From: Escherichia coli
Lineage (GTDB): Bacteria > Pseudomonadota > Gammaproteobacteria > Enterobacterales > Enterobacteriaceae
Length of the DNA: 64,000 nucleotides
Direction: 5' to 3' (one strand)
NCBI RefSeq assembly: GCF_002854065.1
Contig: NZ_CP024147.1
Position 1 is the first letter of the stretch. Every line of letters begins with the position of its first letter. The position numbers were made by a program. Positions 3,001 through 4,759 of this stretch are shown piece by piece.

Positions 3001-4759
3001 ACGCCGTGCGGCGTGTGCGATAACTGTCGTGAAATCGAGCAGGGGCGCTTTGTCGATCTGATTGAAATCGACGCCGCCTCGCGCACGAAAGTTGAAGACA
3101 CTCGCGACCTGCTGGATAACGTCCAGTACGCTCCGGCGCGTGGTCGTTTCAAAGTTTATCTCATCGACGAAGTGCATATGCTGTCGCGTCACAGCTTTAA
3201 CGCACTGTTAAAAACCCTTGAAGAGCCGCCGGAGCACGTTAAGTTTCTGCTGGCGACGACCGATCCACAGAAATTGCCGGTGACGATTTTGTCACGCTGT
3301 CTGCAATTTCATCTCAAGGCGCTGGATGTCGAGCAAATTCGCCATCAGCTTGAGCACATCCTCAACGAAGAACATATCGCTCACGAGCCGCGGGCGCTGC
3401 AATTGCTGGCGCGCGCCGCTGAAGGCAGCCTGCGAGATGCCTTAAGTCTGACCGACCAGGCGATTGCCAGCGGTGACGGCCAGGTTTCAACCCAGGCGGT
3501 CAGTGCGATGCTGGGTACGCTTGACGACGATCAGGCGCTGTCGCTGGTTGAAGCGATGGTCGAGGCCAACGGCGAGCGCGTAATGGCGCTGATTAATGAA
3601 GCCGCTGCCCGTGGTATCGAGTGGGAAGCGTTGCTGGTGGAAATGCTCGGCCTGTTGCATCGTATTGCGATGGTACAACTTTCGCCTGCTGCACTTGGCA
3701 ACGACATGGCCGCCATCGAGCTGCGGATGCGTGAACTGGCGCGCACCATACCGCCGACGGATATTCAGCTTTACTATCAGACGCTGTTGATTGGTCGCAA
3801 AGAATTACCGTATGCGCCGGACCGCCGCATGGGCGTTGAGATGACGCTGCTGCGCGCGCTGGCGTTCCATCCGCGTATGCCGCTGCCTGAGCCAGAAGTG
3901 CCACGCCAGTCCTTTGCACCCGTCGCGCCAATGGCAGTAATGACGCCAACCCAGGTGCCGCCGCAACCGCAATCAGCGCCGCAGCAGGCACCGACTGTAC
4001 CGCTCCCGGAAACCACCAGCCAGGTGCTGGCGGCGCGCCAGCAGTTGCAGCGCGTGCAGGGAGCAACCAAAGCAAAAAAGAGTGAACCGGCAGCCGCTAC
4101 CCGCGCGCGGCCGGTGAATAACGCTGCGCTGGAAAGACTGGCTTCGGTCACCGATCGCGTTCAGGCGCGTCCGGTGCCATCGGCGCTGGAAAAAGCGCCA
4201 GCCAAAAAAGAAGCGTATCGCTGGAAGGCGACCACTCCGGTGATGCAGCAAAAAGAAGTGGTCGCCACGCCGAAGGCGCTGAAAAAAGCGCTGGAACATG
4301 AAAAAACGCCGGAACTGGCGGCGAAGCTAGCGGCAGAAGCCATTGAGCGCGACCCGTGGGCGGCACAGGTGAGCCAACTTTCGCTACCAAAACTGGTCGA
4401 ACAGGTGGCGTTAAATGCCTGGAAAGAGGAGAGCGACAACGCAGTATGTCTGCATTTGCGCTCCTCTCAGCGGCATTTGAACAACCGCGGTGCACAGCAA
4501 AAACTGGCTGAAGCGTTGAGCATGTTAAAAGGTTCAACGGTTGAACTGACTATCGTTGAAGATGATAATCCCGCGGTGCGTACGCCGCTGGAGTGGCGTC
4601 AGGCGATATACGAAGAAAAACTTGCGCAGGCGCGCGAGTCCATTATTGCGGATAATAATATTCAGACCCTGCGTCGGTTTTTCGATGCGGAGCTGGATGA
4701 AGAAAGTATCCGCCCCATTTGATCGTAAGCACAGCTTACGTTCGTCATCCTTAACGTGA

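What the first reader, a model, noticed from the sequence alone, without database searches (positions are those of the whole stretch)
4074..4112. dnaX tau/gamma programmed -1 frameshift signal intact
The A AAA AAG heptamer is in the correct frame and the -1 frame hits TGA one codon later, with a downstream GC-rich stem-loop, as known for E. coli dnaX. Worth recording because automated annotation would list only the 643-aa tau product.
Basis: established knowledge. Interest (0 to 1): 0.2.

Follow-up and report, generated by a model that had tools for sequence, protein, structure and literature searches.

The report
E. coli dnaX tau/gamma frameshift site
This is the well-known signal in the E. 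coli dnaX gene that makes about half the ribosomes slip back one base and stop early, so one gene gives two DNA polymerase III subunits (tau and gamma); it is intact here, identical to the laboratory reference strain, and not new.

Summary
Confirmed and already known. The window carries E. coli dnaX (2791-4722, + strand, 643 aa; 642/643 identical to K-12 tau).

- **Slippery site:** A_AAA_AAG lies at 4074-4080 in the X_XXY_YYZ phase. It is the only such in-phase heptamer in the gene.
- **Short product:** the -1 frame reads AAA AAA GAG UGA, with the stop at 4083-4085. That gives a 431-aa gamma ending ...KKE.
- **Downstream hairpin:** an 11-bp G+C-rich hairpin at 4086-4115 starts 5 nt after the heptamer.

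Rfam's DnaX frameshift element (RF00382) matches 4055-4119 end to end at 96.8 bits (threshold 35). The 91 nt around the site are identical to K-12 MG1655, whose record annotates both tau and gamma. The 65-nt element is unchanged in 5372 of 5423 complete E. coli genomes. In 45 distinct dnaX sequences from other Enterobacterales, the basal helix keeps pairing through compensatory changes.

The hairpin ends at 4115, not 4112. NCBI's PGAP pipeline already flags a "DnaX frameshifting element", although it gives only one gamma/tau CDS. Interest is low.

The parts
2791..4722 (+). dnaX zero-frame ORF encoding tau (643 aa, stop included)
   Evidence: ORF list. NCBIfam PRK07994 equivalog scores 981 bits against a cutoff of 613. 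642/643 identical to K-12 tau; the one difference is M381 here against T381 in K-12. 100% DNA identity to four complete E. coli genomes.
2791..4085 (+). gamma coding range: 2791-4080, then base 4080 is read again and 4080-4085 (GAG TGA) is read in the -1 frame; 431 aa ending ...ATKAKKE
   Evidence: Constructed translation gives 431 aa plus a stop. The -1 frame translation reads ...SKKE*. The range corresponds to the K-12 gamma CDS YP_009518751.1, a two-piece join over locus L002 3093-4387.
4058..4063 (+). internal Shine-Dalgarno-like AGGGAG, the 5' stimulator, 10 nt (4064-4073) upstream of the heptamer
   Evidence: Sequence and spacing. It lies inside the Rfam RF00382 match. Its role as a stimulator is taken from the literature (PMC5009743).
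4074..4080 (+). slippery heptamer A_AAA_AAG (zero-frame codons gcA AAA AAG = Ala428-Lys429-Lys430)
   Evidence: Phase 2 relative to the ATG at 2791, and the only in-phase X_XXY_YYZ heptamer in dnaX.
4080..4085 (+). -1 frame GAG (Glu, the single gamma-specific residue) followed by the UGA stop at 4083-4085
4086..4115 (+). 3' stimulatory hairpin. 5' arm 4086-4097 with bulged A4092; loop 4098-4102; 3' arm 4103-4115 with unpaired C4106 and G4109. 11 bp in all. It starts 5 nt (AGUGA, 4081-4085) after the heptamer.
   Evidence: MFE -18.0 kcal/mol, the same fold as the Rfam consensus. Retained in the MFE of a 141-nt context. Most stable 30-nt window in dnaX. The basal helix is kept through compensatory changes in other Enterobacterales.
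4055..4119 (+). whole cassette as delimited by Rfam RF00382 (DnaX ribosomal frameshifting element)
   Evidence: 96.8 bits against a gathering score of 35, E = 5.8e-20, model positions 1-65 of 65. Annotated as 'DnaX frameshifting element' in RefSeq E. coli records.

Best explanation
This is the E. coli dnaX programmed -1 ribosomal frameshift cassette.

Ribosomes translating dnaX reach gcA AAA AAG with tRNA-Lys in the P and A sites. Two elements hold the ribosome at this point: the mRNA's AGGGAG, 10 nt upstream, pairs with the 3' end of 16S rRNA, and the 11-bp hairpin sits at the mRNA entrance 5 nt downstream. A fraction of ribosomes, about half in vivo according to the literature, then re-pair both tRNA-Lys on AAA AAA in the -1 frame. 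They read GAG (Glu) and stop at UGA. This yields gamma (431 aa, domains I-III of the clamp-loader ATPase). The remaining ribosomes continue to tau (643 aa), which adds the DnaB- and polymerase-alpha-binding C-terminal domains.

Shown here: presence, phase, spacing and foldability of all the signals, their identity to the K-12 cassette, and their conservation. Inferred from published experiments on the identical K-12 sequence: that slippage occurs, its efficiency, and the roles of the two stimulators.
For: - **Site geometry:** heptamer phase, -1 stop and 431-aa product; SD-like AGGGAG with a 10-nt spacer.
- **Hairpin:** -18.0 kcal/mol, the same fold as the Rfam consensus.
- **Family match:** RF00382 at full length, 96.8 bits, E = 5.8e-20.
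- **Identity to the reference:** 91/91 nt identical to K-12 MG1655, where both the tau and gamma CDS are annotated.
- **Gene identity:** dnaX by NCBIfam equivalog and 99.8% protein identity to K-12, in the K-12 gene order apt-dnaX-ybaB-recR-htpG.
- **Conservation within E. coli:** the 65-nt element is unchanged in 5372/5423 genomes (99.1%). The flanking 65-mers are unchanged in 96.3% and 74.1%.
- **Conservation across species:** in 46 distinct dnaX sequences (this window plus 45 from Enterobacterales) the basal helix pairs throughout. The closing pair changes A-U to G-C in 12 sequences, and one sequence changes G-C to A-U. 88% of cells are paired, against 29-52% when partners are slid. Clade variants of the hairpin fold at -18.4 to -20.4 kcal/mol.
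- **Literature:** 50% of ribosomes shift and terminate one codon later; A_AAA_AAG is highly shift-prone with E. coli's single tRNA-Lys; the SD and stem-loop act as stimulators (PMC5009743). Removing the hairpin lowers frameshifting in vitro from about 60% to about 25% (PMC7282821).
Against: Nothing in the sequence argues against it. There are three caveats.

- The hairpin alone is not statistically exceptional in this G+C-rich stretch (z = -1.67 to -2.06). The 141-nt region as a whole is no more structured than shuffles (z = +0.45).
- The cross-species loci were found with a pattern that required AGGGAG, the heptamer and GAGTGA. They therefore say nothing independent about conservation of those three elements; they bear only on the hairpin.
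- No expression data exist for this strain.
Confidence: 0.97

Rival explanations
1. The heptamer, stop and hairpin are a chance arrangement in a Lys-rich, G+C-rich linker, and only tau is made.
For: AAAAAAG is common: 18 copies in the window and three in dnaX. The hairpin's shuffle z-score is modest. Other 30-nt stretches of dnaX fold almost as well.
Against: The Rfam match is full length at E = 5.8e-20. The sequence is identical to the experimentally characterised K-12 cassette. The element is near-invariant across 5423 genomes. Helix changes across genera are compensatory.
Confidence: 0.01
2. Gamma arises by RNA polymerase slippage on the A run, as in Thermus thermophilus dnaX, not by ribosomal slippage.
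For: The site contains a homopolymeric A run. The literature documents this route for T. thermophilus dnaX.
Against: The run is only 6 A (4074-4079). The review describes bacterial transcriptional slippage on runs of about 9 A or T. The conserved SD-like element and the hairpin at ribosome-scale spacings (10 nt upstream, 5 nt downstream) are translational stimulators. In vitro translation of defined mRNA reproduces the shift.
Confidence: 0.01
3. Gamma is produced by proteolysis of tau, as in Caulobacter crescentus, and the frameshift signal is incidental.
For: Proteolytic generation of gamma is documented for C. crescentus.
Against: The E. coli gamma C-terminus is the -1-frame Glu, and the K-12 record annotates the slippage join. 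The literature reports 50% frameshifting in E. coli. The signals are conserved at the nucleotide level.
Confidence: 0.01

Closest known systems
E. coli K-12 dnaX -1 programmed ribosomal frameshift cassette (Rfam RF00382)
   Same: Everything tested is the same. The 91 nt spanning the SD-like element, heptamer, stop and hairpin are identical. Product lengths match at 643 and 431 aa. The genomic context is the same.
   Different: Nothing differs in the cassette. The tau protein has one substitution (M381 here, T381 in K-12), about 140 nt upstream of the cassette (codon at 3931-3933).
dnaX cassettes of other Enterobacterales (Enterobacter, Pantoea/Erwinia/Mixta, Serratia)
   Same: AGGGAG-N10-A_AAA_AAG-AG-UGA and the 6-bp basal helix (A/G)CCGGC...GCCGG(U/C). 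Note that the loci were selected by the first of these strings.
   Different: The upper helix and loop differ by clade. The E. coli type has 5 bp with a bulged C and a 5-nt loop. The Enterobacter and Serratia types have 4 bp with an 8-nt loop. The Pantoea and Mixta types are 3 nt shorter, with 4 bp, a 5-nt loop and a G-C closing pair.
IS3-family (e.g. IS911) transposase -1 frameshifting
   Same: It uses an A_AAA_AAG-type heptamer with an upstream SD-like stimulator and a downstream structure (established knowledge; PMC5009743).
   Different: There, frameshifting fuses two overlapping ORFs into a longer product. Here it truncates the protein after one codon. The IS911 stimulatory structure is a three-way junction.
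Thermus thermophilus dnaX (transcriptional slippage) and Caulobacter dnaX (proteolysis)
   Same: The outcome is the same: a short gamma alongside full-length tau, reported at about 1:1 for T. thermophilus.
   Different: The mechanism differs. This window has the ribosomal-slippage signals and only a 6-A run.

Membership tests
E. coli-type dnaX -1 PRF element (Rfam RF00382) | Covariance-model score at or above the family gathering threshold | tested here: met
   96.8 bits against 35, E = 5.8e-20, model positions 1-65 of 65, at 4055-4119.
E. coli-type dnaX -1 PRF element (Rfam RF00382) | Slippery heptamer A_AAA_AAG in X_XXY_YYZ phase of the zero frame | tested here: met
   4074-4080, phase 2 from the ATG at 2791; the only in-phase heptamer in the gene.
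E. coli-type dnaX -1 PRF element (Rfam RF00382) | -1 frame terminates almost at once, giving a truncated product (gamma, 431 aa) | tested here: met
   GAG then UGA at 4080-4085. The end point matches the K-12 gamma CDS.
E. coli-type dnaX -1 PRF element (Rfam RF00382) | Stable stem-loop 5-6 nt 3' of the heptamer | tested here: met
   11-bp hairpin at 4086-4115, -18.0 kcal/mol. Compensatory changes occur in relatives.
E. coli-type dnaX -1 PRF element (Rfam RF00382) | Shine-Dalgarno-like sequence about 10 nt 5' of the heptamer | tested here: met
   AGGGAG at 4058-4063 with a 10-nt spacer.
E. coli-type dnaX -1 PRF element (Rfam RF00382) | Frameshifting actually occurs (about 50%) and yields gamma | not testable with these tools
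   Reported for the identical K-12 sequence (PMC5009743; PMC7282821). No expression data exist for this strain.
E. coli-type dnaX -1 PRF element (Rfam RF00382) | Host decodes AAA and AAG with a single tRNA-Lys (mnm5s2U34), which makes A_AAA_AAG highly shift-prone | not tested
   The tRNA-Lys genes were not looked for and the whole genome is not available. This is established for E. coli.
DnaX (DNA polymerase III gamma/tau) protein family | Full-length match to the equivalog model above the curated cutoff | tested here: met
   NF005942 PRK07994 scores 981.4 bits against a cutoff of 613 over residues 1-643. TIGR02397 dnaX_nterm scores 445 bits against 250.

The most novel reading that the evidence does not exclude
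The cassette itself is not novel. The most novel reading the data leave open concerns the upper half of the stimulatory hairpin, which comes in at least three clade-specific architectures across Enterobacterales. The E. coli type is 5 bp with a bulged C. The Enterobacter and Serratia type is 4 bp with an 8-nt loop. The Pantoea and Mixta type is one codon shorter with a G-C closing pair. These might set different tau:gamma ratios in different genera. 'Candidatus Pantoea persica' appears to have lost the canonical hairpin while keeping the SD-like element, heptamer and stop.
Probability: 0.25. Interest if true: 0.2.

Novelty: already known. Interest (0 to 1): 0.05.

Why it matters
It matters for correct annotation only. 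The locus encodes two essential-complex subunits (tau, 643 aa; gamma, 431 aa) from one gene, and a gene caller that reports ORFs alone misses gamma. Biologically this is the classic case of bacterial -1 programmed frameshifting. It is annotated in the K-12 reference and flagged by PGAP in RefSeq E. coli genomes, so nothing new is learned from its presence here.

Tried and rejected
1. **Hairpin significance from folding alone.** Shuffle z-scores are modest (-1.67 with flanks, -2.06 for the bare hairpin), and a 141-nt context is no more structured than shuffles (z = +0.45). Folding energy alone would not have established the feature.

2. **The other AAAAAAG copies in dnaX (4204, 4282).** Both are in phase 0 (AAA AAA G), not the slippery phase, so they are rejected as shift sites.

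3. **The pattern scan as a test of conservation.** Only 53 are dnaX. Because the pattern fixes the SD-like element, heptamer and stop, I used these loci only for the hairpin.

4. **The Collinsella hits in that scan.** About 40 hits are Collinsella genomes. The string sits at the very start of the primary sigma-factor gene downstream of dnaG. There AGGGAG is the ordinary initiation Shine-Dalgarno for a GTG start, and no significant hairpin follows (z = -0.37). This is rejected as a related frameshift cassette. The remaining hits are scattered single matches, in line with my back-of-envelope estimate of about 26 chance matches.

5. **The E. coli upper-helix register imposed on all genera.** It fails for about half the sequences at pairs 41-51 and 42-50, because other clades use a different register. 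Only the basal helix and the first two upper pairs are homologous column by column.

Full report
**What is at the coordinates**

The window contains a 1932-nt ORF on the + strand, 2791-4722, encoding 643 aa. It matches the NCBIfam equivalog model for DNA polymerase III subunit gamma/tau (PRK07994) at 981 bits against a cutoff of 613. It is 642/643 identical to K-12 MG1655 tau; the only difference is M381 here against T381 in K-12. The DNA is 100% identical to four complete E. coli chromosomes, and 5424 of 5426 complete E. coli genomes contain a full-length match. The gene order apt-dnaX-ybaB-recR-htpG is that of K-12. The window is therefore E. coli chromosome.

**Checking the observation**

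AAAAAAG lies at 4074-4080. Base 4074 is the third base of codon 428, so the zero frame reads gcA AAA AAG (Ala-Lys-Lys), the X_XXY_YYZ phase needed for tandem -1 slippage. It is the only in-phase heptamer of that form in dnaX. Two other AAAAAAG copies in the gene (4204, 4282) are in phase 0 and are irrelevant.

In the -1 frame the sequence reads AAA AAA GAG UGA, with the stop at 4083-4085. The slipped product is 431 aa ending ...ATKAKKE. This end point coincides with the two-piece gamma CDS (YP_009518751.1) in the K-12 record.

Five nucleotides (AGUGA) after the heptamer, 4086-4115 folds into an 11-bp interrupted hairpin at -18.0 kcal/mol. AGGGAG sits at 4058-4063, exactly 10 nt upstream of the heptamer.

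**Is it more than chance?**

Taken singly, the parts are unimpressive.
- AAAAAAG occurs 18 times in the window.
- The hairpin beats composition-matched shuffles only modestly (z = -1.67 to -2.06).
- It is the most stable 30-nt stretch in dnaX only by a small margin.
- The wider 141-nt region is no more structured than shuffles, although the hairpin is retained in its minimum-energy fold.

Taken together, they are decisive. Rfam's covariance model for the DnaX ribosomal frameshifting element (RF00382) matches 4055-4119 over all 65 model positions at 96.8 bits (gathering score 35, E = 5.8e-20). The 91 nt from 4040 to 4130 are identical to K-12 MG1655.

**Conservation**

Within E. coli, the 65-nt element is unchanged in 5372 of 5423 genomes (99.1%). 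The 65-mer just upstream is unchanged in 96.3% and the one just downstream in 74.1%. This is a mild excess of conservation.

For other species I scanned one genome per species for AGGGAG-N9-11-AAAAAAGAGTGA. Of 120 loci returned, 53 lie in dnaX of Enterobacterales: Citrobacter, Enterobacter, Kluyvera, Kosakonia, Pluralibacter, Serratia, Pantoea, Erwinia, Mixta and others. The pattern fixes the SD-like element, the heptamer and the stop, so these loci are informative only about the hairpin.

In an alignment of this window plus 45 distinct sequences, the results were:
- The six basal pairs are paired throughout.
- The closing pair changes from A-U to G-C in 12 sequences, and one sequence (Mixta) changes an internal G-C to A-U.
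- Overall, 88% of cells form standard pairs, against 29-52% when the 3' partners are slid by 1-3 columns. No shuffle out of 500 reaches the observed covariation score.
- The upper helix differs in register between clades, so the E. coli pairs 41-51 and 42-50 fail in about half the sequences.
- Each clade's own hairpin nevertheless folds well: Enterobacter type -18.4, Pantoea type -20.4, Mixta -19.5 kcal/mol.

**Mechanism**

What the sequence shows is the presence, phase and spacing of all the signals. That they work rests on published experiments with the identical K-12 sequence.
- A_AAA_AAG is especially shift-prone because E. coli's single tRNA-Lys pairs better with AAA than with AAG.
- The upstream Shine-Dalgarno pairing with 16S rRNA and the 11-bp downstream stem-loop are the stimulators (PMC5009743).
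- In a reconstituted system, removing the hairpin lowers frameshifting from about 60% to about 25%. The hairpin slows translocation and hinders A-site tRNA binding (PMC7282821).

I considered three rivals and rejected each.
- **Chance arrangement:** excluded by the Rfam score and identity to K-12.
- **Transcriptional slippage, as in Thermus:** unlikely, because the A run is only 6 nt and slippage is described for runs of about 9.
- **Proteolysis of tau, as in Caulobacter:** unlikely, because the annotated gamma ends in the -1-frame Glu.

This is a member of RF00382 and indistinguishable from the type example. PGAP-annotated RefSeq genomes give one CDS named 'gamma/tau', but they also place a sequence_feature 'DnaX frameshifting element' on exactly this stretch. 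The K-12 record lists both CDSs.

**Verdict**

The feature is already known and of low interest beyond annotation.

Noticed in passing
L043:9769-9796 (- strand) and about 40 other Collinsella loci: The exact string AGGGAG-N10-AAAAAAGAGTGA recurs in many Collinsella genomes. It sits at the start of the primary sigma-factor gene downstream of dnaG. AGGGAG is the initiation Shine-Dalgarno for a GTG start (an in-frame ATG lies just upstream as an alternative), the heptamer is in X_XXY_YYZ phase (CCA AAA AAG), and the -1 frame stops after one codon. No significant downstream hairpin follows (z = -0.37). This is most likely coincidence, but the geometry mimics the dnaX 5' stimulator.
   Followed up: partly
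window 61050-61763: Rfam matches to AgrB (61675-61763, 46.4 bits against 40), ES036 and naRNA4 fall in a segment that RefSeq genomes annotate as a dinQ 'damage-inducible type I toxin'. That segment's annotated features also include mnmH, ybbP and allS. Only 1325 of 5426 E. coli genomes carry at least 80% of the 2.2-kb segment, so it appears to be a variable dinQ/agrB-like type I toxin-antitoxin copy.
   Followed up: partly
window 3931-3933 (codon 381 of dnaX): Tau and gamma carry Met381 where K-12 MG1655 has Thr. The residue lies in the Pro/Gln-rich linker about 140 nt upstream of the frameshift cassette. Four complete genomes share this allele exactly.
   Followed up: no
window 18340-18423; 19721-19798; 61096-61173: Rfam matches to sroB sRNA (82 bits) and to two naRNA4/REP-type elements. 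The one at 19721-19798 matches on both strands.
   Followed up: no
L015:2967-3036 (Candidatus Pantoea persica dnaX): This dnaX keeps the SD-like element, heptamer and GAG-UGA, but the canonical hairpin's 3' arm is missing. An alternative weaker fold is possible (-16.4 kcal/mol, z = -1.29). This may be a degraded stimulator in a symbiont genome.
   Followed up: partly
whole window: AAAAAAG is about twice as frequent as dinucleotide-preserving shuffles predict: 18 observed against 9.2 expected, and 0 of 100 shuffles reach 18. Three of the 18 lie within 210 nt in the Lys-rich dnaX linker.
   Followed up: no
E. coli genome collection: Two of 5426 complete E. coli genomes gave no dnaX match. In two others the dnaX match lies on a record labelled plasmid. 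I did not examine why.
   Followed up: no
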